Of a stretch of DNA of 50,847 nucleotides, positions 6,243-21,785 are shown piece by piece (position 1 is the first letter of the stretch; every line of letters begins with the position of its first letter). This DNA is from a virus (lineage: Duplodnaviria > Caudoviricetes). Position numbers and translations under genes: made by a program. The DNA lies in the IMG/VR virus record IMGVR_UViG_3300035678_000003, positions 1-50,847 of that record. One strand, given 5' to 3'. The notes under the pieces are model-generated. The model had not been told where the DNA came from. It saw only the letters and a list, made by a program, of their open reading frames with translations, and did no database searches.

Positions 6243-8066
6243 ATGCACAACCCGACGTTCGAGGCGATCTGCACCGCCGTGGAGGAGCAGACTGGTTATC
6301 CGCCCAAGGGCAGCGACACCCGCAAGAAGGGGGTCTGCCCGGCCCACGAAGACACCAAACCCTCGCTGTCGATCCGCTGGGACGCGGAGAAGCTCGTGGT
6401 CGGAGTGACCTGCTGGAGCGGGTGCACGTTCGACGAGATCGTTAAGTCCCTGGATCTGACGAAGGAAGATTTCCGGGACAAGCTTCCCGGTGCCCGTTCC
6501 GGCCGACGGGGTGCCAGCCGGACCAAGCGTGCGCCGAAAGCCACCGAGGCCGACGACGAGCAAACGAGCGGCAAGCGCGGGGCCCCGGAACCCGGCCGCA
6601 ACGAGGTGGCGCGATACCCCTACACCGACGAGACCGGGAAGGTCCTGTACTACAACGTCCGGTTTGAGCCGAAAGACTTCCGTATGGCGGGGCCGGATGG
6701 GCAGATGAAAGCCCTTCCAAAGAACCTGCGGCGCGTCCCCTACAACCTCCCGAAGCTGCTGGCCGCAATCGAGGCTGGCGAGGTCGTGTACTGGGTCGAG
6801 GGCGAGAAGGATGTCCACTCGCTCGCCGAGAAGGGCGTGGTCGCCACAACGTCCGCTGGCGGAGGAGGCACCCCGCCCGAGCCCGCCTGGGCTGCCCTGT
6901 TCGAGGGCGCGCACCTTGTCGTGGTCGGCGACAAGGACAAGACCGGGCAGAAATACGCGAAGAATATCGCGAAGCTGGTCGTCAATGAGGTAGCGTCGGT
7001 CCGGGTAGCGCAAGCCGCGACCCCGCAGGCCAAGAGCGACGTCACGGACCATCTCGCTGCCGGGTACCGCCTGGACCAGCTCGATTGGCAGCCGATGCGC
7101 TCGATCCGGCGCACGCGCTGGACGATGTCGGATCTGATGAGCACCCCGCCCGAGCCGCTGCGCTGGGCCCTGCCCGGCGTCATCCCCGAGGGGCTCACCC
7201 TGTTGGTCGGGGCCCCGAAGGCGGGCAAATCGTGGTTTAACCTCAACCTCGTGACCGCCCTGACCACGGGCCGCCCCGTCGAGGTGTTCGGGTGGGGCCA
7301 GGACCTGGAGCCCTGCCCGTCCCTGTACCTGGCTCTGGAGGACCCGCACCGCCGGGTTTACGACCGGATGAACCAGATCACGCGAGGGCTCGACTTCAAA
7401 GCGCACCGCGCGGGTGACGTGTGGCTATCGCTGGACCCGCTGCATTCCGGCGGCCGGGACGAAATTGAGCGGTGGCTAGAGAAGAACCCGACCGCCCGAA
7501 TGATCGCGGTCGACGTGCTGGCAAAGGTGCGCGACGGCGACGAGGGCCAGACGATGTACCAAGCCGACTACGAGGCCGTGGGCGCGCTGAAGGATATCGC
7601 CGACGACTACGGGATCGGCGTGGTCGTCACCCACCACGACCGCAAGAAGACCGACGACGACTTCGTAAACATGGTGTCCGGCACCAAGGGCGTCACGGGT
7701 GCGGCGGACACGATTCTGTACTTGGAGCGGAAACGCGGCTCCGACGAGGGCACGCTCAAGAGCGAGTCGCGCGACGTGGAGAGCTGTACATACAAAATGC
7801 AATTCGTGCGTGAATTCGGTCGCTGGCAGATCCTGGAGCGATTGGACCCGGATGCCGAGCCGTCGCCCAACGCCGAGCCGAAGATGGCGCTCGCCGACCA
7901 GATCAGCCAGGTCCTGATGCACCGGGGCGAGTCGAGCCTCAAGGATGTGGCGAAGGTGCTCGACGTGCCCGAGGCTACGGTCAAGCGTGCGGCTGCCGAC
8001 GCGCGCGAGAATGGGGCGCTGAACCAGACCTCAGACGGCAAGTGGTACGTCCCTAAGGTGAACTGA
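6243..8066 (+). CDS. DNA primase-helicase (Zn-finger + TOPRIM + AAA_25/RepA-like helicase)
   Basis: CPAHEDTKPSL..CWSGC, VEGEKD, DKD, GAPKAGKS Walker A, VVTHHDRK. Confidence 0.92.
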   Translation: MHNPTFEAICTAVEEQTGYPPKGSDTRKKGVCPAHEDTKPSLSIRWDAEKLVVGVTCWSGCTFDEIVKSLDLTKEDFRDKLPGARSGRRGASRTKRAPKATEADDEQTSGKRGAPEPGRNEVARYPYTDETGKVLYYNVRFEPKDFRMAGPDGQMKALPKNLRRVPYNLPKLLAAIEAGEVVYWVEGEKDVHSLAEKGVVATTSAGGGGTPPEPAWAALFEGAHLVVVGDKDKTGQKYAKNIAKLVVNEVASVRVAQAATPQAKSDVTDHLAAGYRLDQLDWQPMRSIRRTRWTMSDLMSTPPEPLRWALPGVIPEGLTLLVGAPKAGKSWFNLNLVTALTTGRPVEVFGWGQDLEPCPSLYLALEDPHRRVYDRMNQITRGLDFKAHRAGDVWLSLDPLHSGGRDEIERWLEKNPTARMIAVDVLAKVRDGDEGQTMYQADYEAVGALKDIADDYGIGVVVTHHDRKKTDDDFVNMVSGTKGVTGAADTILYLERKRGSDEGTLKSESRDVESCTYKMQFVREFGRWQILERLDPDAEPSPNAEPKMALADQISQVLMHRGESSLKDVAKVLDVPEATVKRAAADARENGALNQTSDGKWYVPKVN

Positions 8067-10132
8067 TGACGGTCCTGCGCGGATTCAAACCTAGCCAACT
8101 ACCCGACCTCGAAACCTTCGTTGCCGCTGACACCGAGACCTCCGGCCTGCACCCCGATGATGGCGGCCGGGTGGCCGTCGTGTCGGCCGCGTGGCACACG
8201 CCTTCGGGCAAGATCGAGTCGTGCGCCTTCCCGTTCTGGCAGGGCTTGTACGAGAAGCCCGACGTGCTGGAGAAGGCCGACTTCGGCTGGAAGGATTATG
8301 TCGAAGGGCCCGAGGTCCACGGGTACTTCAAGAATGGCAAACCCCGATCGAAGAAGATCCACCGGAAGTGGACGATCGAGGAGAAAATGGAGGCGCTCGG
8401 GGCTAACCCGAACCTCGGGCCGGAGGACTGGGCTATCCTGATCGAGTGGCTCCTGAAGGTACCGGGCCTGGTCTGGCACAACGCGCTGTTCGACCTCGTC
8501 GTGATGTACGCGGGCACCCCGGACTTCCCCGGCGTCGACCTGCTGCAGCACACGGCTTGGGACACCATGCTCGGGCAACGCGCCCTGGATCCGGAACACC
8601 CGCTCGCGCTGAAGGACACCGCCGAGCGGCTGTTCGACCGCCCGCCCACCGAACAAGACGCGCTGAAGGAGCACCTGAAATCGCGCAAGTTCCCGACCGC
8701 CGGTAAGAACGTGCGGTACGACTACGCCGACTGGGACGTGATGGAGGAGTACGCGGCAGTCGACACCGAGGACACGATCCAGCTCGCCCGGCACCAGTGG
8801 CACCGCTTCAGCGAGGGCGAGTCGAGCTGGGACCTGATGCACCACAACATGGACGTCATGGCCGCCCTGACCCGCATGGAGCAGCGCGGGGTGCCGTACA
8901 AGGCGGAGGAATCGTTGGTCTGGGCCGAGAAGCTCGACGCCCGGATCGCCGCCATGGTAGACGGGTTCCCGTTCAACCCGACCGCCCCGCAGGCGACTGA
9001 GTTCTTCTTCGGGCAGGGCGAGACCCAGCGCGGGGTGCACTGCCTCGGGCTTAAGCCCGTCAAGCTTACGGGCAACGGGAACGCGTCGCTTGATGGCGAG
9101 GTGGTGGACGAGCTGGCCGCTCGCGACGTGCCCTGGGCCAAGGAGTACCGCGAGTACGGAATGAGCCAGGACGCGGTCGGGAGGTACTACCGGGGGTACG
9201 CGGAAGCCACCGGGGAGGACGGCCGCCTGCGGACGCGCTTTCGGCAGACCGGGACCCGAGCGGGCCGCCTGTCGTGCGAGCGCGTCAACCTGCAGGCCAT
9301 CCCGCACGACCACCGCTTGCTCGCCGGTAACTCGGAGATCCTGGCGGAGGCTCCGAGCCCGCGCGCCCTGATTGAGATTCCCGAGGGCTACCGAGGGTTC
9401 CACATGGACCTCGCGCAGGCCGAGCTACGGGTTGCCGCCCTGGAGGCGCGGTGCGAGCCGATGCTGCAGTACTTCCACGAGGGACGCGACCCGCACGGCG
9501 AGACGGCTATCGGTCTGGGCCTCACCGCTGGCAAGGACGACCCGGATGGCATGGACTGGTACAAGGCGCGGTCCGTGATCGGGAAACGCTCGAACTTCTC
9601 GCTCGTCTTCGGCATCGGCCCTAAGAAGTTCCGCGAGGACCTGCGCAAGCAGTCCGGCATCGACTTCGGCATCAAGAAGGTGACCGAGATCCACAAGGAC
9701 TGGAACGCCCTATACCCCGAGTTCAGCCGCGCGATCAAGCGCCACATGTACGCGGCCGAGAAGCAGGGGTGGACGCCGATCAAGGGCGACCTGCGCCGTT
9801 ACTACACGCCGCTGGAGATGGGCATCGGGCCGGACGGCCGACGGCTGCAGTACAACGACCTGCACAAGGCGTTTAACCAGCGAGTACAGGGCCTGCTCGG
9901 CTGGTTCGGCCAGTATTGGCTCAAGAAGGCCGAACGGCACCTGTTGGACGCCGGGCTCGACGAGTTCGAGTGCGGCCTGCTGCTGCAGATTCACGACGCG
10001 CTGATGGTCATGGTCCCCGTAGGGATGGAGCACCTGGCCGAGGAGTGCGCCCAGATCGCCCGCGACATGTGGGTCGAGTGGTTCCCGGACGTCCCCGGCG
10101 GGGTGGACGTGGAGGAGTGGAACCACAAGTAG
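8066..10132 (+). CDS. family A DNA polymerase with 3'-5' exonuclease; DpoZ candidate
   Basis: DTETSG, HNALFD, GRLSC..NLQAIP, DLAQAELR, KRSNFSLVFG, QIHDA motifs; adjacent to purZ. Confidence 0.93.
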   Translation: MTVLRGFKPSQLPDLETFVAADTETSGLHPDDGGRVAVVSAAWHTPSGKIESCAFPFWQGLYEKPDVLEKADFGWKDYVEGPEVHGYFKNGKPRSKKIHRKWTIEEKMEALGANPNLGPEDWAILIEWLLKVPGLVWHNALFDLVVMYAGTPDFPGVDLLQHTAWDTMLGQRALDPEHPLALKDTAERLFDRPPTEQDALKEHLKSRKFPTAGKNVRYDYADWDVMEEYAAVDTEDTIQLARHQWHRFSEGESSWDLMHHNMDVMAALTRMEQRGVPYKAEESLVWAEKLDARIAAMVDGFPFNPTAPQATEFFFGQGETQRGVHCLGLKPVKLTGNGNASLDGEVVDELAARDVPWAKEYREYGMSQDAVGRYYRGYAEATGEDGRLRTRFRQTGTRAGRLSCERVNLQAIPHDHRLLAGNSEILAEAPSPRALIEIPEGYRGFHMDLAQAELRVAALEARCEPMLQYFHEGRDPHGETAIGLGLTAGKDDPDGMDWYKARSVIGKRSNFSLVFGIGPKKFREDLRKQSGIDFGIKKVTEIHKDWNALYPEFSRAIKRHMYAAEKQGWTPIKGDLRRYYTPLEMGIGPDGRRLQYNDLHKAFNQRVQGLLGWFGQYWLKKAERHLLDAGLDEFECGLLLQIHDALMVMVPVGMEHLAEECAQIARDMWVEWFPDVPGGVDVEEWNHK

Positions 10133-10158
10133 ACAGGGGTTTACCACCGTGGTAAGAT
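10130..10158 (+). promoter_or_regulatory. promoter and operator for the purZ operon
   Basis: TAGACA-17bp-TAAGAT; TTACCACCGTGGTAA at 10141..10155. Confidence 0.8.
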
Positions 10159-10193
10159 AGACCCTATTACCCTGCCCGATGGAGAGGAACAAC

Positions 10194-11354
10194 ATGTCAG
10201 GACGCCTTATCGTCGTGGTCGGCGGACAGTTCGGCAGCGAGGCCAAGGGCCACGTCGCTGCCCAGCTCGCCGAGTACCACGATGCGGATCTGGTCATCCG
10301 TACCGGCGGGCCGAACGCGGGCCACACCGTATACAGCCCCGCCCAGGTGGCACACGACGCGTCGACCGCCCACCCGTTCAAATTGCGGCAGCTGCCGACC
10401 GCCAGCGTGAGCAACCCCCGCTCGACGCTCGGAATCGCGGCCGGGGGGCTAATTGACCCCGAGCTGCTGGAGGAGGAGCTGAACTCGACCGACGCGAACC
10501 GCGTGCTGATCGACCCGGCCGCCACCATCCTGGAGCCGAAGCACCGCCACGCGGAGGAGGCCGACCCCGAGATGCAGTGGGGTTCGACCAAGGAAGGCAT
10601 CGGGGCCGCCCGTGCCGACCGTGTTCACCGGACGGCGCGCACGGCCGGGGACTGGTACAAGGAGTTCCCCAACAAGCGGGTCGCGCTGGCAGACCTGGCC
10701 CAGATCGCCCGCGACACGCTGCGACACGGTGGCGCGGTGCTGGTGGAGGCCGCCCAGGGCTACGGGCTCGGACTGCACACCGACTATTACCCGAAGACCA
10801 CATCGGCGGACTGCCGCGCGGTCGACGCACTGGCGGATGTTGGCCTGTCGCCCTGGTCCATTCCGTTCGTCGACCTGAACGTCTGGGTGGTCGTCCGCCC
10901 CTACCCGATCCGTGTGGCGGGGGAGTCCGGGCCGCTGGCAGGGGAGACCACCTGGGATGACCTCGGGCTGCCGGAGGAGCGGACCACAGTCACCAACAAG
11001 GTCCGGCGCGTCGGCGGCTGGGACCCCGAGCTGGTGTACAAGGCGATTCAGGCGAACGGGGGCGGCCTGGGTACCAACCCGAAGACCGTGCGCGTCGCCC
11101 TGACCATGGTCGACCAGGTGATCCCGAACCTGGCGAACGTCGGCTCGGGACACGAGCTGTTGAGCGCGGAGCTGCAGGACCTGTCCGACCTGATGGACTG
11201 GTTCCACCGGGTCGGCAACTGCGGGGCGGACGTCGGCATGATCACGACCTCGCCTTACTCGGCGGTGTTCGATATGGACGCGAACCCGATGGTCCGCGCC
11301 CTCACCCAGGCATCCAGGCTCGTCACGGAATCCCGCATGGCGGAACCCCTCTGA
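10194..11354 (+). CDS. purZ: PurZ (PurZ0-type) N6-succino-2-amino-2'-deoxyadenylate synthase, adenylosuccinate synthetase homolog
   Basis: GGQFGSEAKG (Ser at the PurA catalytic Asp), GPNAGHT, EAAQG, RTTVTNKVRRVG, LTMVDQ. Confidence 0.9.
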   Translation: MSGRLIVVVGGQFGSEAKGHVAAQLAEYHDADLVIRTGGPNAGHTVYSPAQVAHDASTAHPFKLRQLPTASVSNPRSTLGIAAGGLIDPELLEEELNSTDANRVLIDPAATILEPKHRHAEEADPEMQWGSTKEGIGAARADRVHRTARTAGDWYKEFPNKRVALADLAQIARDTLRHGGAVLVEAAQGYGLGLHTDYYPKTTSADCRAVDALADVGLSPWSIPFVDLNVWVVVRPYPIRVAGESGPLAGETTWDDLGLPEERTTVTNKVRRVGGWDPELVYKAIQANGGGLGTNPKTVRVALTMVDQVIPNLANVGSGHELLSAELQDLSDLMDWFHRVGNCGADVGMITTSPYSAVFDMDANPMVRALTQASRLVTESRMAEPL

Positions 11355-11836
11355 TGGCGGTCCACCAAGGGCCGGGGCTGTGTTACTGCGACTTGCTGGC
11401 ACAGCCCCACAAGGCCCATCAAGACGGAGTCGGCGGCATTTCGCTACAGACCGAGGAGGGTGCAGTGGTGTTCAACCCGGACCTGAGCAAGCCGACGGAG
11501 ACGTACGTCGGCGGAGGGCAGCGCGAGGCCAACGCGGGCCGCCCTCGCTACGACCTAATGTGGACCCGCAGCCAGCCGCTGGACGAGCAGATGCTGACGC
11601 GGGACGCCAAATGGATCGCCTACGGATCGGCGAAGTACGGCGAACGGAACTGGGAGGCATTTGAGGGCCCGGACGCCCTCGCCCGCTGCGAAGCGTCGCT
11701 CGGTCGGCACTACGCGGCCTTCATGCTGGGCGAGGACGACGAGGACCACGCGGCAGCTATCCGCGCCAATGTCCAGTTCATCGAGTACATCCGCTGGCGG
11801 ATGATCCCCGACGGAAGCACCGAAGGCCCATTCTAA
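11354..11836 (+). CDS. dATP/dGTP diphosphohydrolase-domain protein (DUF5664-like)
   Basis: GGQRE...GRPRYDL...YGSAKYGERNWE...RH...EDH.AA pattern; coupled to purZ by TGATG overlap. Confidence 0.8.
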   Translation: MAVHQGPGLCYCDLLAQPHKAHQDGVGGISLQTEEGAVVFNPDLSKPTETYVGGGQREANAGRPRYDLMWTRSQPLDEQMLTRDAKWIAYGSAKYGERNWEAFEGPDALARCEASLGRHYAAFMLGEDDEDHAAAIRANVQFIEYIRWRMIPDGSTEGPF

Positions 11837-11846
11837 GGAGAAATTC

Positions 11847-12722
11847 GTGTCCCTGACTGCCTACCTTGCCCGACCGATCGACCTGTCGTCCCTGACCGGC
11901 GCGCAGTCCAATCACCTGGCGTTCGTCGAGGACTACCTCCTCGAACGCGGCGTGGTCGTCTTCAAGCCCGCCGGAGCGTTCGCAGTGCCGCCCGAGACGC
12001 CCCCGCACGGCGCAATCCAGGACATCAACCGCTACGCCCTGGAACGATCCGACCTGCTCGTCGCGCTGTACCCCGAGGCCGTCGGGGTAGGCACCGCGAT
12101 GGAGCTGGAGTACGCCCGTGCGGCCAAAAAGCCCATCCTCGTCGTAACCGACGTGGCCCACAAGTCGTGGTCGCTGGCGGGGGTCCCGAAGGCCGTGAAG
12201 ACCCAGTTCCCGACGGGGTCCGAGGTCGAAGCCGTCGTCGCCTGGGCCCACCTGGCGCAGACCGAGCGGGAGAAGGATGGGGCGGCTGCTCGCCCGGTGC
12301 TCAAGTTCCAGCTCGACGACGATGCCAAGATGCCGACGCGTGGCTACGCCGGAGACGCCGGGTACGACCTGTACGTCCAAGAGGACATCGTGATTGGCCC
12401 GGACGCGTTCGCCGACGTGCCCATGGGCTGCGCGGTCGAGCTGCCGCCCGGCGTCTGGGGGTTCATCACCGGTCGCTCGTCGACCCTGCGCAAGCACAAC
12501 CTGCTGGTGACCACCGGAATCATCGACACGGGCTACCGAGGGCCGCTGTTCGCCGGGGTCAAGAATCTCGACTTCAACCGCCCGTTCACGGCGGAGAAGG
12601 GAACCCGGCTCGCCCAGCTCATCCCGCTCCCGAACCTCGCGGACGGTATGCTGGCGGTAGAAGCGCAAACCCTCGACCCGTCCGAGCGGGGAACCGCCGG
12701 ATTCGGGTCGTCTGGCCACTAG
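11847..12722 (+). CDS. fusion: nucleoside 2-deoxyribosyltransferase/N-glycosidase-like domain + trimeric dUTPase
   Basis: N-term AYLARP...SDLLVA...GTAMELEYARAAKKP; C-term AGYDL, GRSS, GIIDTGYRG, RLAQL, RGTAGFGSSG. Confidence 0.85.
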   Translation: MSLTAYLARPIDLSSLTGAQSNHLAFVEDYLLERGVVVFKPAGAFAVPPETPPHGAIQDINRYALERSDLLVALYPEAVGVGTAMELEYARAAKKPILVVTDVAHKSWSLAGVPKAVKTQFPTGSEVEAVVAWAHLAQTEREKDGAAARPVLKFQLDDDAKMPTRGYAGDAGYDLYVQEDIVIGPDAFADVPMGCAVELPPGVWGFITGRSSTLRKHNLLVTTGIIDTGYRGPLFAGVKNLDFNRPFTAEKGTRLAQLIPLPNLADGMLAVEAQTLDPSERGTAGFGSSGH

Positions 12723-12730
12723 GAGGGGCG

Positions 12731-13456
12731 ATGCCTGCTGGCAAGCCAATCAAACGGACGGCGGAGGAGCGCGCGAAGCTTCCGCCGTCCAAGCGGGGCG
12801 CGCACAACACCAAGCCGCCCGTGCCGCTCAAGCGCGAGCTGTGCGGCGCGACCAAGCCAAATAAGGAGAAGTGCGGCCTGCCCGCCGGGTACGGCACCGA
12901 CCACCCCGGCAAGGGCCCCTGCAAGCACCATTTCGGGAACACGGCCGGAGTGGTCCGGGGCGTAGCGATCGACGATGGCAAGGACGTTATCGCTACGCTG
13001 CGCGGAATGGGTGTCGAGATGGACATCGACCCTATCGACGCGCTCGTGTGGGAGGTGCGCAACTCGGCTGGACACGTCGCCTGGCGGCGCTCGATTATCG
13101 CCACCTGGGAGACCCGGGACAAGAAGGGTGACTTCATCCCGCTTACGGCGGAGCAGGAAAACTTCTACGCTGCGTACCTGGAAGAGCGCAAGCAGCTCGT
13201 CTACGCCGCCCGGATGGCCGAAGCGGCTGGCGTGCAGCAGCGGGCAATCACGATCTCGGAGAAGCAGAGCGTCATGCTCGCGGACGCGGTCGAGGCCATC
13301 CTTATTGGGCTCGGGCTGTCCGAGCGGCAAAAGGAGCTGGTGCCGGAGATTGTGCCGCCCACCCTGCGCGCGATCGCCATGCGCGTGCCGCTGCTGGAGG
13401 AGCTCGTGAGCACGGATCCGGACATCAACGAAGCGTGGATCGAGAGGAACCGATGA
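12731..13456 (+). CDS. putative terminase small subunit / DNA-binding protein
   Basis: CGA...C...AGYGTDHPGKGPCKHHFG motif followed by a helical region; AGGAGG RBS. Confidence 0.55.
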   Translation: MPAGKPIKRTAEERAKLPPSKRGAHNTKPPVPLKRELCGATKPNKEKCGLPAGYGTDHPGKGPCKHHFGNTAGVVRGVAIDDGKDVIATLRGMGVEMDIDPIDALVWEVRNSAGHVAWRRSIIATWETRDKKGDFIPLTAEQENFYAAYLEERKQLVYAARMAEAAGVQQRAITISEKQSVMLADAVEAILIGLGLSERQKELVPEIVPPTLRAIAMRVPLLEELVSTDPDINEAWIERNR

Positions 13457-13770
13457 CCAACACCTGGAACTACTTGATCGCGGCCGGACAGGAGATCGCG
13501 ACATCCGCCCGTCCGGCCGAGTGGCGGGCCCGCGTCGACGCCCTGCTGGTCTGGCACCTGAACAAGACGGCTGCCGACGCGGCTATCGAGTACTCCCGCC
13601 TGATCAACGAGAATGTCGCGCCGGAGATCGCCGCCATGTCCGTCGAGATGGGGGCCGAGTACCTGATGGCGATGGAAGCGGCGGCCGACGTGCTGGGCGT
13701 CGGTTACTCCAAGTGGTCGGTGGACGCAAATTTCAAGAAGGCGTTCCCGAACGCCAAGAGTGACGGATAG
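13453..13770 (+). CDS. hypothetical protein
   Basis: ATGA overlap, GAGAGGA RBS. Confidence 0.75.
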   Translation: MTNTWNYLIAAGQEIATSARPAEWRARVDALLVWHLNKTAADAAIEYSRLINENVAPEIAAMSVEMGAEYLMAMEAAADVLGVGYSKWSVDANFKKAFPNAKSDG

Positions 13771-13961: not shown

Positions 13962-14255
13962 ATGTCGGTTCCCAGACCATCCGCAGTAGTGCGGGTGTTC
14001 TACATCGCCAAGTACACGTTCAAGCTGACGGAAAACCACGACGGCACCTTCGCCGTCGTCAAGGTCCCCATCGTCAACCCGGTTCGGCGATCCATGGAGA
14101 TGCCCCAGCCGGACGCCCTGATCTTCAGTCGCAAGATCGCCGCCATGGGTGGGCAGTCGAAGGTAATGCGCTGGAAGACGAACCAGGGCATGTACGGCGA
14201 ATGGGTCTTGGTAGAGGATTCGAACAAACCCGACAAGGAGAAGCGCAATGGCTAG
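13962..14255 (+). CDS. hypothetical protein
   Basis: GGAGG RBS, follows promoter. Confidence 0.75.
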   Translation: MSVPRPSAVVRVFYIAKYTFKLTENHDGTFAVVKVPIVNPVRRSMEMPQPDALIFSRKIAAMGGQSKVMRWKTNQGMYGEWVLVEDSNKPDKEKRNG

Positions 14256-14982
14256 ACACCGCAAACCTCGTACCCGCAAGTACCGCTTGCTGGGCTACTT
14301 GGTCGGCCCGCTCCTGATGGCCGCCTTGACCGCCTGCGGCTTCGCGGGACCCGACGCGCCCCCGGAGGCTGCAGCATGGACGGCCCCTTCGTCGGTCCCG
14401 GTCGCTTTGCCCTCCCCGAGCAGCCCGCCCCCGTCCATCGTGCCTGCAGCCCCTTCATCGACCCGACCGACGCCCCCGACCACTTCTACAGCAGCCCGCA
14501 CGACCCCTTCGACCACCAAGGCGGCCCCGAAGACCGTGCCGAGTAAGAAGCCCGCCGTCGCCCCGGCCGCCAAGCCGAAGCCCGCCGCGAAGCCGTCCAC
14601 CTCCGGGTGCGACTGGCGGACCGAGTTCGCCCGGAACGCGGCCTCGATGCCCGGCAAATGGAACGCCGTTGCGATGACCGAGACCGGGTCCAGCGCCGAA
14701 ACCCAGGTCAGTACCGGAGAGGTCTGGGTACGCACCGACGTGGCGTGCGTCTACCTGCACGACCTTATGCTGCACGAGTCGATGCACGTCCGCCAGGGAC
14801 GCATCTACGGGACCGCTGCGGCGGCCTCTCGTGCGCTCGGGGCGTACGGCGGTATCGAGGTCAACGCGGACTGCGCCGCCCGTGCGGCTGGCGCACGCAA
14901 CGGCTCGGGCTACACCGACGGCCCATGCGCGGGCAAGTACGCCGAGGCTGGTCGCGCCACGCTCGCCGGGCGGTCGGTCTGA
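14248..14982 (+). CDS. lipoprotein with Pro/Thr/Ser-rich linker and HExxH metallopeptidase-like domain
   Basis: Basic N-terminus, hydrophobic stretch, LTAC lipobox; LHESMH then E.NADC. Confidence 0.75.
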   Translation: MARHRKPRTRKYRLLGYLVGPLLMAALTACGFAGPDAPPEAAAWTAPSSVPVALPSPSSPPPSIVPAAPSSTRPTPPTTSTAARTTPSTTKAAPKTVPSKKPAVAPAAKPKPAAKPSTSGCDWRTEFARNAASMPGKWNAVAMTETGSSAETQVSTGEVWVRTDVACVYLHDLMLHESMHVRQGRIYGTAAAASRALGAYGGIEVNADCAARAAGARNGSGYTDGPCAGKYAEAGRATLAGRSV

Positions 14983-15368: not shown

Positions 15369-15597
15369 GCCCGAAGGTTATGATGCCTACATCGACTACG
15401 TCTGTGGTCGTACCGTCGAGGACGCGCCCGAGGAGAAGCCCGTGAACGACGCTGACACGCCGATCTTCAACGCGCTGTTGGAGGAACACCCGAACTTGGT
15501 CGCCCTGCTGGAGCCGGAATGCCCGCGTGTGCGCCGTCGTCGGCTGGCGCACCGCCCGCGCCGCCGGATGCCCACCCCATACCCCCGGGGCGAGTGA
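15352..15597 (+). CDS. hypothetical protein
   Basis: Overlapping operon gene. Confidence 0.6.
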   Translation: MTDPNEPEGYDAYIDYVCGRTVEDAPEEKPVNDADTPIFNALLEEHPNLVALLEPECPRVRRRRLAHRPRRRMPTPYPRGE

Positions 15598-16085
15598 TGG
15601 GGACACGGCTGGCGGGCCGGACAGTCGAGGAGAAGCTGCGGTTCAACGTCGAATACGTCGGCAGCACCTGCTGCTTGCTCTGGACGGGCACGAAGACGGG
15701 CAACGGGTACGGCTCGATCCACTTGAATGGCTCGTCCGTCCCCGTGCACCGGGTGGCCTACGAGCTGTGGGTGGGGCCGCTGCACGCCGACGACACGGTC
15801 GACCATAAGCCCCGGTGCCGCCGCGCCCTGTGTATCAACCCCGCCCACCTCGAAGCGGTGTCGGGGCCGGAGAACACCCGGCGGATGAACGCGGCGCTGC
15901 GCGAGATCAAGCAGGCGGCCGACCTGGGCATCCGAGTGGCGTGCGGCAGGCCCCGTCCCGGCAGCGGCACCACAATCTACTGTGAAATGGAACAGACCTG
16001 GCACCGGACTCACCGCGTGCCGGGCTCGCACCTTCACCACGGCCGGGGCAAGGGCGGCCGTTGGTACACCTGGGAGGACCGATGA
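15597..16085 (+). CDS. HNH endonuclease
   Basis: CLLWTG...GYG...VHRVAYEL..G...DH..C....CINPAHL...EN. Confidence 0.9.
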   Translation: MGTRLAGRTVEEKLRFNVEYVGSTCCLLWTGTKTGNGYGSIHLNGSSVPVHRVAYELWVGPLHADDTVDHKPRCRRALCINPAHLEAVSGPENTRRMNAALREIKQAADLGIRVACGRPRPGSGTTIYCEMEQTWHRTHRVPGSHLHHGRGKGGRWYTWEDR

Positions 16086-17356
16086 GCCGCCAGCCGTTTT
16101 GGGACGCGATGAACTGCGGGGAATGCGGGGCCGACGCCTGCACCCACAGCCGCTCTGCGCACACGTATCTGGTGGAGAGCCAGGAGGTCGCCGACGCGAT
16201 CGAGGCCGCTACCGGGGTCCATCCGGTCGTCAATCCGCTCGTCCCGCAGGGCACGGCGTATGTCTTCCCCGCAGGCGTCGACGGACTGCCCGAATCACCC
16301 GCTGCGGGTTGGGTTGACCGGGGATACACCGACGACGGCTTCATGCGGTCGATGGAGGAGCGGAGGGCCGGGCACTGGCGGAACTATGTTCGGCTGATGA
16401 ATGAGCAGATCGAGGGGACGCTCATCCCTCCAGTCGGCTCGGTCCCTCCGCCCAACTCCGAGCTCGGACGGCTAATCGCGTCGGGGGCACACGGCGAGGT
16501 TCTGTTCGATGGCCCCGCTCGGCTGATCGTTACGCCCGACGACACTACCCCGCTCGGGGTGCCAATGGCGGACCACGAAAGGGCGAATACACACGCCCAG
16601 CTTCGGCAGCGATTTGAGCAGATGGCCGCACGCAGGGGGCTGACCACCGAGGTGATGCCCGGAGGGCTGGTGCACCGCGATCCGCACGACTTCTCGAACA
16701 TCGACGAGGCGCTGCGCTGCTGGAACTGGGCGAACTGTGGCGGCGAAGACCAGGGTCTCGGGTGGTGCTCCGAGTCGTGCCACACGGCCTTCCTGGAGTC
16801 GAAGTGGGGCCCCGCGCATCTGCGGCCGACCGACCGCTCCGAGGTCGCTCCCGATCTGCCGGAGCTGGAGGGCGACCCGCACGGGCTCAACGGCCGCGCC
16901 CACTGGTCATCGTCGCGGGGTGGTCAGGGCCTCACCGTACCGCCCGCCGAGCCGTCCACCGTGGTGGGGATTGGGTTCGACCGAAGCGAGTGGGAGGAGA
17001 TCGGGGCGACCACCGATCCGGCCGACGACTTCGGCTGGGTGCAATACGGGAACGCCGAGGCTGTGGCCCAGGCTCTGCCACACACCCGGTACGCCCCGGT
17101 CTCGGCGGCGATCACCGCGATCGAGCTGGCCGCCCGCCGCTGGTTCGACCCGTCCAACGCCCTGGATTTCCTCTGGGCTTGTAACTTCCAGCGCGAGGAG
17201 TGGCGAGTCACGATCGGTTGGGAGACCCGGCGGGCAGATGAGCAGGGAGCTGTCTACCATATGCGAAACGTGCACCAGCAGATGCTGCGCGCCGAGATGT
17301 TGGCCACGGTCGCCCCCGAATTCATCGCGGGTCGGCTCGTGTCCTACCTGGTCTAG
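16082..17356 (+). CDS. hypothetical protein
   Basis: ATGA overlap; long ORF. Confidence 0.75.
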   Translation: MSRQPFWDAMNCGECGADACTHSRSAHTYLVESQEVADAIEAATGVHPVVNPLVPQGTAYVFPAGVDGLPESPAAGWVDRGYTDDGFMRSMEERRAGHWRNYVRLMNEQIEGTLIPPVGSVPPPNSELGRLIASGAHGEVLFDGPARLIVTPDDTTPLGVPMADHERANTHAQLRQRFEQMAARRGLTTEVMPGGLVHRDPHDFSNIDEALRCWNWANCGGEDQGLGWCSESCHTAFLESKWGPAHLRPTDRSEVAPDLPELEGDPHGLNGRAHWSSSRGGQGLTVPPAEPSTVVGIGFDRSEWEEIGATTDPADDFGWVQYGNAEAVAQALPHTRYAPVSAAITAIELAARRWFDPSNALDFLWACNFQREEWRVTIGWETRRADEQGAVYHMRNVHQQMLRAEMLATVAPEFIAGRLVSYLV

Positions 17357-20160: not shown

Positions 20161-20209
20161 TTACCTGCGTGGTAAGAGAGCACCTCCCCCTAAACCACGG
20201 TGGTAAACT
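20161..20209 (+). promoter_or_regulatory. two operator-like palindromes upstream of terminase
   Basis: TTACCTGCGTGGTAA (20161..20175), AAACCACGGTGGTAA (20192..20206) plus TAAACT. Confidence 0.7.
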
Positions 20210-20216
20210 CCGTCGT

Positions 20217-21785
20217 ATGCCGGAGACGAGCTTGCAGAAAGCGCCCGACCCATTCGAGCTGGCGGCTCGGCGATTCGAGCGACGTGGGTCCGCGCAATAC
20301 CTGTACAACCCGCTGGGATGGATCGACCGGTTCGTTAAGTTCCCGGTCACGAGCGACGGCCCAGGTGCCTTGACGCCGTACCAGCGCGAGTCTATCAACG
20401 ACCTGGTGATAGCTCGGCGCGTGGCAGTCCGGGGCCCGCACGGGCTAGGCAAGACGACCTCGAACGCACTGGTGATCCTGTGGTTCGCGCTATCGCGGGA
20501 GGACGCGCGGATCGACTGGAAGATCATCACGACGGCCGGGGTCTGGCGGCAGCTGGAAGTGTACCTCTGGCCCGAGATCCACAAGTGGGCCGGACTGCTG
20601 GACTGGGAGGCGCTGGGCCGCGCGCCGTTTGACCCGATCCACGAGCTGCAGACCCTGAATCTCAAGCTTCACCACGGCGCGGCCACCGCCGTCGCGTCCA
20701 GTAAGAAGGAACTGATCGAGGGTGCGCACGCCGACTCGATCCTGTACGTGTTCGACGAGGGCAAGGCGATCGACGCCGACATCTTCGACGCGGCCGAGGG
20801 TGCGTTCTCCGGAGCTCGCGAACAGGGCTTGCCCGAGGCGTTCGGCCTGGCGCAGTCGACCCCCGGCGACACCTCCGGCCGCTTCTACGACATCCACCGA
20901 CGGGCCCCCGGGCTAGATGACTGGAAGGTCCGGCACGTCACGCTGTCCGAGTGTATCGCGGCCGGACGGGTGTCCCCGACATGGGCTAACAACCGTGCTA
21001 AGCAGTGGGGTATCGACTCCGCCGTCTACGCCAACCGCGTACTCGGCGAGTTCCACTCCTCGGACGAGGACACGACGGTACCGCTCGCGTGGGTCGAGGC
21101 CGCAATCGAGCGCTGGCACATGTGGGAGGAGCAGGGCAAACCCGTGCTGGACGGCCGCCGGGTGGTCGGGGTCGACGTGGCGCGCGGGGGTGGCGACCTC
21201 ACGGTCATCGCGGACCGCATCGGGCCGATCGTCTACCCGCTCACGCGCATGGATGTGGCGGACACGATGAAAGTCGCGAAGGCAACCGCGCGTCGCATGC
21301 CGAACCGCACCGACCTGGCCGTGATCGATGTGATCGGCATCGGCGCAGGCGTGGTCGACTACCTGCGGATGAAGAAGGTGCACAACATCCACGCGTTCAA
21401 TGCGGCCCGCAAAACCAGCATGCGGGACAGGTCCGGGGAGTTCGGCTTCGTGAACCAGCGCGCGGCCATGTGGTGGACGATGCGCGAGATGCTGGATCCC
21501 ACATTCGGGCCGACCCTCGCGCTGCCGGACGATGATGACCTGATCGGCGAACTGACCTCGCCGCGCTGGTGGGTCACCCCGAGTGGCAAAATCCAGGTCG
21601 AATCGAAGGACGAGGTTCGGAAGCGGATCGGTCGCTCGACTGACTCGGCGGACCCGGTTTGCCAATCGCTCCTGACCGACACCGAATTCAACCAGGTAGA
21701 ATCGACCGAACCAGACGCCTACGCGTACGCGGATTCGCCTTCCGCTAGCCAGGGCTCGAACACCGACGCCTATTCGTGGGAGTGA
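20217..21785 (+). CDS. terL: terminase large subunit
   Basis: GPHGLGKTT Walker A, VFDEG Walker B, GVDVARGGGD nuclease motif, RSTDSAD. Confidence 0.93.
   Translation: MPETSLQKAPDPFELAARRFERRGSAQYLYNPLGWIDRFVKFPVTSDGPGALTPYQRESINDLVIARRVAVRGPHGLGKTTSNALVILWFALSREDARIDWKIITTAGVWRQLEVYLWPEIHKWAGLLDWEALGRAPFDPIHELQTLNLKLHHGAATAVASSKKELIEGAHADSILYVFDEGKAIDADIFDAAEGAFSGAREQGLPEAFGLAQSTPGDTSGRFYDIHRRAPGLDDWKVRHVTLSECIAAGRVSPTWANNRAKQWGIDSAVYANRVLGEFHSSDEDTTVPLAWVEAAIERWHMWEEQGKPVLDGRRVVGVDVARGGGDLTVIADRIGPIVYPLTRMDVADTMKVAKATARRMPNRTDLAVIDVIGIGAGVVDYLRMKKVHNIHAFNAARKTSMRDRSGEFGFVNQRAAMWWTMREMLDPTFGPTLALPDDDDLIGELTSPRWWVTPSGKIQVESKDEVRKRIGRSTDSADPVCQSLLTDTEFNQVESTEPDAYAYADSPSASQGSNTDAYSWE

What the first reader, a model, noticed from the sequence alone, without database searches (positions are those of the whole stretch)
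11847..12722. NDT/N-glycosidase-like domain fused to dUTPase inside the purZ operon: candidate new adenine-depletion enzyme
Seen: the N-terminal ~150 aa match the nucleoside 2-deoxyribosyltransferase/Rcl(DNPH1)/MilB fold pattern (Y in AYLARP, SDLLVA, catalytic Glu in GTAMELEYA..KKP). The Asp residues typical of true transferases appear replaced (DINRY, GVGTAME). The C-terminal ~140 aa carry all five trimeric dUTPase motifs. Established: Rcl/MilB-type members cleave the N-glycosidic bond of nucleoside monophosphates. Inference: this domain could destroy the dAMP made by the neighbouring diphosphohydrolase while sparing dGMP/dZMP, replacing DatZ. Alternatively it could swap bases onto deoxyribose phosphate. 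I am not aware of this fusion being described in a Z pathway, but cannot verify novelty.
Basis: partly seen in the sequence, partly recalled or inferred. Interest (0 to 1): 0.85.

Follow-up and report, generated by a model that had tools for sequence, protein, structure and literature searches.

The report
Fused dAMP-cleaving and dATP-hydrolysing phage enzyme
This phage gene fuses a domain that very likely cuts adenine off dAMP to a dUTPase-like domain that very likely turns dATP into dAMP, helping the phage replace A with 2-aminoadenine in its DNA; the same fusion was characterised biochemically in a 2026 paper, so this is a divergent new member and not a new enzyme.

Summary
ORF 11847-12722 (+, 291 aa) has an N-terminal NDT/DNPH1/MilB-fold domain (residues 1-141) and a C-terminal trimeric-dUTPase domain (149-291). 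It follows DpoZ-like PolA, PurZ0 and a DUF5664 diphosphohydrolase in a complete 50.8-kb phage genome that lacks DatZ.

Poubanne et al. (NAR, Feb 2026, PMC12884076) characterised this fusion (DmtZ-DutZ) from Arthrobacter phage Wayne, and the separate proteins from Gordonia phage Ghobes. DutZ hydrolyses dATP, dGTP and dUTP to dNMPs. [quoted passage not shown]

The window protein aligns end to end with Wayne gp53 (34% identity, E 5e-47). It keeps every residue the paper names as critical: Y6, D12, P41, N61, E86, W108, matching Ghobes Y6, D12, P57, N77, E103, W124. The AlphaFold model (pLDDT 93.8) matches MilB and NDTs (Z 13.4) and dUTPases (Z 16.5).

Of 80 IMG/VR loci with DutZ relatives, 76 carry PurZ just upstream. 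The other 4 are cut at the contig end. None has DatZ.

Verdict: correct inference, already published; a divergent new member on an uncultured actinophage backbone. Activity was not measured here.

The parts
11847..12722 (+). DmtZ-DutZ fusion ORF (291 aa, GTG start)
   Evidence: ORF and translation. BLASTP to Arthrobacter phage Wayne gp53: 34% identity over the full length, E 5e-47. Pfam PF05014 plus PF00692. AlphaFold model pLDDT 93.8.
11847..12269 (+). DmtZ domain (residues 1-141): NDT-superfamily fold, predicted dAMP N-hydrolase and deoxyribose-5-phosphate transferase
   Evidence: VIA-align: MilB 4ohr_A Z 13.4, NDT 6evs_B Z 13.4, Rcl 2khz Z 10.4. Residues Y6, I11, D12, L13, P41, N61, V81, G82, E86, W108 align with Ghobes DmtZ Y6, V11, D12, Q13, P57, N77, V98, G99, E103, W124. 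In 70 metagenomic homologues Y6, D12, P41, G82 and E86 are invariant, N61 is kept in 66/70 and W108 in 67/70.
12291..12722 (+). DutZ domain (residues 149-291): trimeric-dUTPase fold, predicted dATP/dGTP/dUTP diphosphatase
   Evidence: PF00692 E 6.8e-25 and phrog_135 E 2.4e-44. Foldseek and VIA matches to dUTPases, Z up to 16.5. Motif residues align with the phage 80alpha dUTPase.
11835..11840 (+). Shine-Dalgarno AAGGAG, 6 nt upstream of the GTG start; it overlaps the TAA stop of the preceding gene
   Evidence: Read directly from the sequence.
11354..11836 (+). DUF5664-type dATP/dGTP diphosphohydrolase-like gene
   Evidence: PF18909 E 7.2e-10, 39.2 bits. The same family occupies the same position in Wayne gp51 and in IMG/VR loci L006 and L007. 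It is only weakly similar to Wayne gp51 pairwise, E 0.11.
10179..11354 (+). PurZ0-type 2-aminoadenylosuccinate synthetase
   Evidence: PF00709 and phrog_1211. 44-47% identity to PurZ of Hiyaavirus and Korravirus actinophages, against 28-32% to PurZ of Vibrio and Acinetobacter phages and S-2L.
8066..10132 (+). Family A DNA polymerase, DpoZ-like
   Evidence: PF00476. 34% identity over the full length to the Wayne DNA polymerase I, E 1e-102.

Best explanation
The ORF encodes a bifunctional DmtZ-DutZ enzyme of a PurZ0-type 2-aminoadenine (Z) genome phage.

The C-terminal Dut-like domain (DutZ) hydrolyses dATP, and also dGTP and dUTP, to the monophosphates. This removes dATP from the polymerase pool and supplies dGMP to PurZ0.

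The N-terminal NDT-fold domain (DmtZ) then takes the dAMP. Using Glu86 as nucleophile, positioned by Tyr6 and Asn61, it breaks the N-glycosidic bond and releases adenine. The deoxyribose-5-phosphate goes either to water (hydrolysis) or to free 2-aminoadenine (giving dZMP).

Together with the upstream DUF5664 diphosphohydrolase, this replaces the DatZ/MazZ pair of PurZ-type phages.

Shown here: domain architecture, fold, conservation of all named catalytic residues, gene context, and absence of DatZ.
Shown by others, on homologues at 31-34% identity: the activities.
Inferred: that this protein has the same activities and specificity.
For: - Full-length BLASTP to the characterised Wayne fused enzyme: E 5e-47, 34% identity.
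- N-domain to the stand-alone DmtZ homologue of Sapo (Ghobesvirus): E 4e-12. 31% identity to Ghobes DmtZ in alignment A3.
- All residues whose mutation abolished or lowered Ghobes DmtZ activity (Y6A, D12A/R, E103A, N77D, P57A), plus the lid Trp124 named from the paper's model (not mutated there), are conserved. They are Y6, D12, E86, N61, P41 and W108.
- Across 70 homologues Y, D, P and E are kept in 70/70, N in 66/70 and W in 67/70.
- Fold: MilB and NDT at Z 13.4; dUTPases at Z 16.5; model pLDDT 93.8.
- Synteny PolA-PurZ-DUF5664-fusion, as in Wayne.
- The complete genome (direct terminal repeats, 100% complete) has no YfbR-like or HD_3 domain at E<=1. It has no tblastn match to S-2L DatZ or MazZ.
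- In 80 IMG/VR loci with DutZ relatives, 76 have a PurZ homologue 1-3 kb upstream and 0 have an S-2L DatZ match.
- tblastn with the N-domain alone against 50,697 phage records hits 13 records, all Arthrobacter, Streptomyces or Gordonia phages. The Sapo DmtZ query hits 109 records from the same three host genera only.
- Biochemistry of the homologues: PMC12884076.
Against: - No activity was measured for this protein, and identity to the assayed enzymes is only 31-34%.
- The Pfam NDT match passes its cut-off by only 0.3 bit.
- Position 13 differs among members: Gln in Ghobes, which contacts the phosphate in the paper's model; Phe in Wayne; Leu here. Ghobes DmtZ also cleaves dZMP while the Wayne domain does not, so fine specificity varies within the family and cannot be read off for this member.
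- The DatZ absence test used two Pfam HD families and one DatZ sequence. A very divergent dATPase would be missed.
- The 80 IMG/VR loci are the best-scoring matches, not a random sample, so the 76/80 linkage describes the close DutZ clade only.
- In vitro transfer yield was only about 20% for the homologues, so the weight of the transferase role in vivo is open.
Confidence: 0.85

Rival explanations
1. The N-terminal domain is a nucleoside-level purine 2'-deoxyribosyltransferase (dA + Z base -> dZ + adenine), like the NDT-M2 enzyme from dZ-enriched metagenome contigs. It would then not be a nucleotide-level dAMP enzyme.
For: PF05014 is the Pfam family it hits. The bioRxiv preprint 10.1101/2025.10.22.683976 (abstract and section 7 read) shows a dZ-associated NDT that prefers dA as donor.
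Against: Those NDTs co-occur with DatZ, which makes dA, and this genome has no DatZ. The domain is fused to a diphosphatase whose product is dAMP. The closest relatives (Wayne, Ghobes) act on dAMP, and the paper describes a 5'-phosphate pocket without the Asp/Asn that hold the 5'-OH in NDTs. The aligned pocket residues here are I11, V81 and G82.
Confidence: 0.06
2. The protein is an ordinary dUTP-sanitising dUTPase. Its N-terminal domain would be a degenerate or purely structural or regulatory appendage with no glycosidase activity.
For: GenBank and RefSeq annotate all the homologues simply as dUTPase, deoxyuridine triphosphatase or dCTP deaminase. The Wayne enzyme still has its highest apparent kcat on dUTP.
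Against: The catalytic triad and Asp12 are invariant or nearly invariant in 70 homologues, which argues for selection on catalysis. The Wayne N-domain alone is active on dAMP. The close DutZ clade is tied to PurZ in 76 of 80 loci.
Confidence: 0.03
3. It has the same chemistry but a shifted specificity in this divergent lineage. For example it might also cleave dZMP, as Ghobes DmtZ does, or use another dNMP donor or base acceptor.
For: Identity to the assayed enzymes is only 31-34%. Specificity already differs between Ghobes and Wayne. Position 13 is variable: L in 42, F in 17, Q in 3 of 70.
Against: Asp12, proposed to read the adenine 6-amino group, is invariant. Residue 13 is hydrophobic, as in Wayne, whose domain is dAMP-exclusive.
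Confidence: 0.1

Closest known systems
DmtZ-DutZ fused enzyme of Arthrobacter phage Wayne (gp53; Poubanne et al., Nucleic Acids Res 2026, PMC12884076)
   Same: Same two-domain order, similar length (291 vs 306 aa) and full-length alignment (E 5e-47). Same catalytic residues. Same gene order PolA - PurZ0 - DUF5664 - fusion. No DatZ in the window genome.
   Different: Only 34% identical. The inter-domain linker region is shorter. The neighbouring DUF5664 is barely similar (E 0.11). Wayne has an extra small ORF (gp52) before the fusion. The phage backbones differ: the terminase here is nearest Streptomyces phage TurkishDelight and Actinoplanes phage phiAsp2, both of which lack PurZ.
Stand-alone DmtZ (gp53) and DutZ (gp55) of Gordonia phage Ghobes
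   Same: The DmtZ residues Y6, D12, P57, N77, G99, E103 and W124 are all conserved in the window protein. Both sit next to PurZ0.
   Different: Two separate genes in Ghobes, one fused ORF here. Q13 and V11 in Ghobes are L13 and I11 here. Ghobes DmtZ also cleaves dZMP.
DNPH1/Rcl and MilB (2'-deoxynucleoside or CMP 5'-phosphate N-hydrolases) and classical nucleoside 2'-deoxyribosyltransferases
   Same: Same alpha/beta fold: MilB Z 13.4, NDTs Z 11.4-13.4, Rcl Z 10.4. The Tyr...Glu nucleophile arrangement is the same according to the paper's alignment.
   Different: Sequence identity is 15-21%. The triad has Asn where most family members have Asp (paper; N61 here). The domain is fused to a dUTPase-fold domain. 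The homologues are dAMP-specific and combine hydrolase with dR5P-transferase activity, which the paper reports as unprecedented.
DatZ (HD-domain dATP triphosphohydrolase) plus MazZ of PurZ-type phages such as S-2L
   Same: Same pathway role: removing dATP and supplying dGMP, so that Z replaces A.
   Different: Unrelated folds. DatZ yields dA and triphosphate, whereas this system yields dAMP and then adenine. No DatZ or MazZ match in this genome. It is a functional analogue, not a family member.

Membership tests
DmtZ (NDT-superfamily dAMP hydrolase / dR5P transferase of PurZ0 phages) | NDT/DNPH1-type alpha/beta fold | tested here: met
   AlphaFold model pLDDT 93.8. Residues 1-141 match MilB at Z 13.4, NDTs at Z 11.4-13.4 and Rcl at Z 10.4.
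DmtZ (NDT-superfamily dAMP hydrolase / dR5P transferase of PurZ0 phages) | Catalytic triad Tyr6 / Asn77 / Glu103 (Ghobes numbering) | tested here: met
   Y6, N61 and E86 align with the Ghobes residues. Y and E are kept in 70/70 homologues and N in 66/70.
DmtZ (NDT-superfamily dAMP hydrolase / dR5P transferase of PurZ0 phages) | Asp12 (proposed adenine reader), Pro57 and lid Trp124 | tested here: met
   D12, P41 and W108 align. Kept in 70/70, 70/70 and 67/70 homologues.
DmtZ (NDT-superfamily dAMP hydrolase / dR5P transferase of PurZ0 phages) | Uncharged 5'-phosphate pocket (Val11, Gln13, Val98, Gly99) | tested here: inconclusive
   The window has I11, L13, V81 and G82. These are uncharged as required, but Gln13 is replaced (Wayne has Phe). 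No ligand model was made here.
DmtZ (NDT-superfamily dAMP hydrolase / dR5P transferase of PurZ0 phages) | Encoded next to dutZ in a PurZ0 genome | tested here: met
   It is fused to the Dut-like domain, 493 nt downstream of PurZ. The PurZ is 44-47% identical to actinophage PurZ0 and 28-32% to PurZ.
DmtZ (NDT-superfamily dAMP hydrolase / dR5P transferase of PurZ0 phages) | [quoted passage not shown] | not testable with these tools
   Shown only for the Wayne and Ghobes enzymes (PMC12884076).
DutZ (Dut-like dATP/dGTP/dUTP diphosphatase of PurZ0 phages) | Trimeric-dUTPase fold with the conserved motifs | tested here: met
   PF00692 E 6.8e-25. Foldseek E 2e-12 to dUTPases. VIA Z 16.5. Motif residues align with the 80alpha dUTPase. 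The trimeric state itself was not tested.
DutZ (Dut-like dATP/dGTP/dUTP diphosphatase of PurZ0 phages) | Belongs to the PurZ-linked dUTPase clade | tested here: met
   The best phage matches are the Korravirus and Hiyaavirus fused genes. 76 of the 80 best IMG/VR relatives have PurZ upstream, and the other 4 are cut at the contig end. No tree was built here.
DutZ (Dut-like dATP/dGTP/dUTP diphosphatase of PurZ0 phages) | Hydrolysis of dATP and dGTP as well as dUTP | not testable with these tools
   Shown for the Ghobes and Wayne enzymes only.
Classical nucleoside 2'-deoxyribosyltransferase (PF05014) | Pfam gathering score | tested here: met
   29.1 bits against a cut-off of 28.8; marginal.
Classical nucleoside 2'-deoxyribosyltransferase (PF05014) | Asp/Asn that bind the 5'-OH of a nucleoside substrate | tested here: inconclusive
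   The paper states that these are absent in DmtZ. Here the residues aligned to the Ghobes pocket are I11, V81 and G82. I made no residue-level alignment to a solved NDT.
DatZ (HD-domain dATP triphosphohydrolase) | HD / YfbR-like domain | tested here: not met
   No PF12917 or PF13023 match anywhere in the genome at E<=1. No tblastn match to S-2L DatZ. The ORF has other folds.

The most novel reading that the evidence does not exclude
The four-gene Z cassette (DpoZ-like PolA, PurZ0, DUF5664, DmtZ::DutZ) sits here on a phage backbone not so far associated with Z genomes. The nearest cultured relatives of the backbone's terminase, Streptomyces phage TurkishDelight and Actinoplanes phage phiAsp2, have no PurZ. 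This would be a further, uncultured lineage of Z-DNA actinophages that gained the cassette by horizontal transfer.

In this lineage the fused enzyme may assemble into a higher-order complex, with an NDT-type dimer or hexamer joined to Dut trimers, that channels dATP straight to adenine or dZMP. The assembly idea is pure inference. No oligomer was modelled.
Probability: 0.3. Interest if true: 0.4.

Novelty: new member of a known kind. Interest (0 to 1): 0.22.

Why it matters
This shows that a first-pass reading from raw sequence correctly predicted the chemistry of a recently discovered enzyme family.

It adds a divergent member (31-34% identity) from a complete, uncultured, 66% GC phage genome. 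Comparison with it sharpens which residues are truly invariant: Y6, D12, P41, G82 and E86.

It also shows that the DutZ/DmtZ/PurZ0 linkage holds in 76 of 80 IMG/VR loci. The paper surveyed only NCBI genomes.

Public annotations still call these genes dUTPase or dCTP deaminase, so re-annotation is warranted.

It opens no new biological question beyond those the 2026 paper already raises: the in vivo weight of the transferase route, the source of free Z base, and the structure of the fused enzyme.

Tried and rejected
- **Megablast of 10179-12722 against phages:** no match. The phage has no close cultured relative at the DNA level.
- **The search for related loci with the single protein:** nothing found. 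I repeated it with alignment A2 and obtained 80 loci.
- **Foldseek against PDB with the whole model:** the listed rows were all dUTPases, so it said nothing about the N-domain. VIA-align wide resolved both domains, so I ran no separate N-domain fold.
- **PDB profile search with A2:** the 60 listed hits were all dUTPases. No NDT-family chain appeared in that list, so sequence alone does not link the N-domain to solved structures.
- **tblastn of the window's DUF5664 against the 80 IMG/VR loci:** 0 hits at E<=1e-3. Pfam nevertheless finds PF18909 genes at the same position in L006 and L007, so the blank reflects divergence and not absence.
- **Sapo as a stand-in for Ghobes:** I first treated the Gordonia phage Sapo DmtZ as near-identical to Ghobes DmtZ. 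It is only 52.5% identical. I therefore fetched Ghobes itself and repeated the residue mapping. The result did not change.
- **Complex prediction:** considered for the oligomer idea and not run, because no claim in this report rests on it.
- **Trees:** no tree of PurZ, DutZ or DmtZ was built. The PurZ0 assignment rests on identity bands.
- **Fused versus separate count:** this used a short motif of my own (Y-x-x-x-P/A-hydrophobic-D) within 3 kb. It gave 20 fused, 47 separate and 13 none. By my rough estimate a chance match occurs in about 1 locus in 50. That estimate was not computed in a call.
- **Supplements:** Its supplementary tables may list further genomes or residues that bear on novelty.
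- **Print searches:** PurZ+dUTPase gave 6 papers. PurZ+deoxyribosyltransferase gave 2. DmtZ gave 35 papers, of which 10 were listed; only 1 of those 10 was relevant and the other 25 were not seen. PurZ0 gave 3.
- **What I read:** for PMC12884076, the abstract and outline, all of Results and the Discussion, plus passages found in Methods. For the bioRxiv preprint, the abstract and outline and section 7. All other papers were seen only as search listings.
Full report
**What is there.** The window is a complete virus record: 50,847 bp, direct terminal repeats, 100% complete by CheckV. It is 66% GC with a 127-bp terminal repeat.

At 11847-12722 on the + strand there is a 291-codon ORF that starts with GTG. 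An AAGGAG Shine-Dalgarno sequence lies 6 nt upstream and overlaps the stop codon of the preceding gene.

Pfam finds two domains. Nuc_deoxyrib_tr (PF05014) covers residues 19-106 at E 1.2e-6, with 29.1 bits against a cut-off of 28.8. dUTPase (PF00692) covers residues 159-290 at E 6.8e-25. PHROGs sees only the dUTPase part.

Upstream, on the same strand, lie these genes:
- a primase/helicase at 6243-8066;
- a family A polymerase at 8066-10132;
- an adenylosuccinate-synthetase homologue at 10179-11354 that PHROGs places in the PurZ family;
- a PF18909 (DUF5664, dATP/dGTP diphosphohydrolase N-terminal) protein at 11354-11836.

**Structure.** I built an alignment of 70 metagenomic homologues (A2) and ran AlphaFold2 on it. 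The model has mean pLDDT 93.8 and pTM 0.71. It shows an alpha/beta domain (strands at 4-8, 37-39, 70-74, 97-100 and 116-119), a long helix at 124-145, a short less confident linker, and a beta-rich C-terminal domain.

Foldseek against the PDB listed only dUTPases. VIA-align against 48,161 representative chains resolved both halves:
- Residues 149-263 match dUTPases at Z 16.5-13.4.
- Residues 1-141 match MilB 4ohr_A (Z 13.4, rmsd 3.2 A, 137 aligned).
- They also match the 2'-deoxyribosyltransferases 6evs_B (13.4), 7m5h_B (13.0), 7o62_A (12.5), 1s2d_A (11.7) and 1f8x_A (11.4), and Rcl 2khz (10.4).

Unrelated Rossmann-like folds (TIR domains, receiver domains, LOG proteins) follow at Z 10-11. The fold class is therefore clear, but fold alone would not fix the family.

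**It is already known.** Full-text searches for PurZ with dUTPase and for PurZ with deoxyribosyltransferase led to Poubanne et al., Nucleic Acids Research, February 2026 (PMC12884076). I read its abstract, all of Results and the Discussion. The authors studied exactly this architecture:
- Arthrobacter phage Wayne has a 'Dut-like' protein with an N-terminal extension that AlphaFold and Foldseek matched to DNPH1/Rcl, MilB and NDTs.
- Gordonia phage Ghobes has the two parts as separate genes.
- The Dut-like part (DutZ) hydrolyses dATP, dGTP and dUTP to monophosphates.
- The full Wayne protein turns dATP mainly into free adenine.
- The isolated Wayne N-domain converts only dAMP to adenine.
- In Ghobes DmtZ, the mutations Y6A, E103A and D12A/R abolish activity, and N77D and P57A lower it.
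- All 98 PurZ0 genomes they surveyed have dutZ, 85 have dmtZ, and 77 of those 85 are fused.
- PurZ-type phages use DatZ and MazZ instead.

A bioRxiv preprint (10.1101/2025.10.22.683976; abstract and section 7 read) independently links PF05014 NDTs to dZ-enriched metagenome contigs. Those NDTs act on nucleosides and co-occur with DatZ.

**Is the window protein a member?** BLASTP against Wayne gp53 aligns both domains end to end at 34% identity, E 5e-47.

I fetched Ghobes gp53. Its residues carry exactly the paper's numbering, which confirms it is the characterised DmtZ. In the alignment the window protein compares with Ghobes as follows:

| Window | Ghobes DmtZ |
|---|---|
| Y6 | Y6 |
| I11 | V11 |
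| D12 | D12 |
| L13 | Q13 |
| P41 | P57 |
| N61 | N77 |
| V81 | V98 |
| G82 | G99 |
| E86 | E103 |
| W108 | W124 |

Every residue shown by mutagenesis to matter is therefore kept, and so is the lid Trp124 that the paper named from its model. The phosphate-pocket positions stay uncharged. Only position 13 differs (Phe in Wayne).

Among 70 metagenomic homologues, Y6, D12, P41, G82 and E86 are invariant. N61 is kept in 66 and W108 in 67.

That replacement is the Asn77 feature the paper discusses.

The C-terminal domain carries the dUTPase motif residues, aligned with the phage 80alpha dUTPase.

The PurZ here is 44-47% identical to those of Streptomyces Hiyaavirus and Arthrobacter Korravirus phages. 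It is 28-32% identical to those of Vibrio and Acinetobacter phages and S-2L, which places it with the actinophage PurZ0 group.

The polymerase is 34% identical over its full length to Wayne's.

The genome has no YfbR-like (PF12917) or HD_3 (PF13023) domain at E<=1. It has no tblastn match to S-2L DatZ or MazZ.

In the phage collection, 119 of the 981 records that match the query cover at least 80% of it. These are mostly Arthrobacter phages plus Streptomyces Hiyaavirus. The synteny PurA-like, one or two small genes, then the fusion is seen in HunterDalle, Galactica and Wayne.

The N-domain alone hits 13 records, all Arthrobacter, Streptomyces or Gordonia phages. The Sapo stand-alone DmtZ hits 109 records from the same three host genera.

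In IMG/VR, 80 loci with the best DutZ-like matches were fetched:
- 76 have a PurZ homologue 1-3 kb upstream.
- In the 4 without one (L011, L018, L062, L063) the match lies within 1.2 kb of the contig end.
- None has an S-2L DatZ match.
- By a motif test of my own, 20 of the 80 are fused, 47 have a DmtZ-type motif in a separate ORF within 3 kb, and 13 have none. PurZ is present in 17/20, 46/47 and 13/13 respectively.

The condition 'equally common in phages without purZ' is thus not met. The caveat is that these are the closest relatives and not a random sample.

The wide protein search found 573 homologues at E<=1e-3. The top 120 are 277-315 aa long, which is fused length.

**Mechanism.** The most likely mechanism runs in four steps:
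1. DutZ and the neighbouring DUF5664 enzyme drain dATP to dAMP, and convert dGTP to the dGMP that PurZ0 needs.
2. DmtZ attacks dAMP with Glu86, held in place by Tyr6 and Asn61. Asp12 reads the adenine 6-amino group.
3. Adenine leaves.
4. The deoxyribose-5-phosphate is passed to water or to free 2-aminoadenine.

The activities are shown only for homologues at 31-34% identity. For this protein they are inferred from residue conservation, fold and context. Fine specificity cannot be predicted with confidence, for example whether dZMP is spared as in Wayne or cleaved as in Ghobes. Residue 13 is hydrophobic, as in Wayne.

**What is new here, modestly.** The phage has no DNA-level relative among 50,697 phage records.

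Its large terminase is closest (51-54%) to those of Streptomyces phage TurkishDelight and Actinoplanes phage phiAsp2. Neither has a PF00709 gene, while the controls Wayne, Galactica and Ghobes do.

The Z cassette therefore sits on a backbone whose nearest cultured relatives have no purZ gene. This fits the paper's view that the machinery spreads horizontally.

PF18909 genes sit between PurZ and the fusion here, in Wayne, and in the closest IMG/VR loci L006 and L007. The paper had reported DUF5664-1 in the PurZ0 phages that infect Arthrobacter.

**Verdict.** The claim of novelty fails. This is a new, divergent member of a known kind, and interest is low.

Noticed in passing
window 20169-21785 compared with 8066-12722: The genome is a mosaic. 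The large terminase is 51-54% identical to those of Streptomyces phage TurkishDelight and Actinoplanes phage phiAsp2, which lack any PF00709 (PurZ) gene. The Z-pathway genes are closest to Hiyaavirus and Korravirus phages.
   Followed up: partly
window 11354-11836: The DUF5664-type gene passes Pfam PF18909 at 39.2 bits but is barely similar to Wayne's DUF5664 gp51 (pairwise E 0.11). It gave no tblastn hit in 80 related IMG/VR loci, although L006 and L007 carry PF18909 genes at the same position. It is a very divergent copy with an N-terminal extension.
   Followed up: partly
L013:9390-9992: In one IMG/VR relative an adenylate-kinase-like gene (PF00406, E 4.6e-14) lies between PurZ and the fused DmtZ-DutZ gene. 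It is a candidate phage-encoded dNMP/dZMP kinase in the Z cassette.
   Followed up: no
L066, L067, L068, L071, L077, L080: In these IMG/VR loci the DmtZ-like domain lies downstream of the DutZ gene, the opposite order to the window, and in a separate ORF.
   Followed up: no
L088:2998-3483; L001:7995-8909; RefSeq copies listed: Public annotation is misleading. Ghobes gp53, the stand-alone DmtZ, is labelled 'deoxyuridine triphosphatase'. The fused genes are labelled dUTPase or, in several RefSeq records, 'dCTP deaminase'.
   Followed up: no
L014, L015, L020, L058, L060, L064, L065, L070, L072-L075, L082: Thirteen PurZ-linked DutZ loci show no DmtZ-type motif within 3 kb. This echoes the 13 of 98 PurZ0 genomes without dmtZ in the paper. 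How these phages dispose of dAMP is open.
   Followed up: no
window 12767-13456, 13435-13770, 14248-14982, 16061-17356: The ORFs just downstream of the fusion have no Pfam match at E<=0.01. An HNH_3 endonuclease-like ORF lies at 15519-16085, below the Pfam cut-off at 22.1 bits against 24.8.
   Followed up: no
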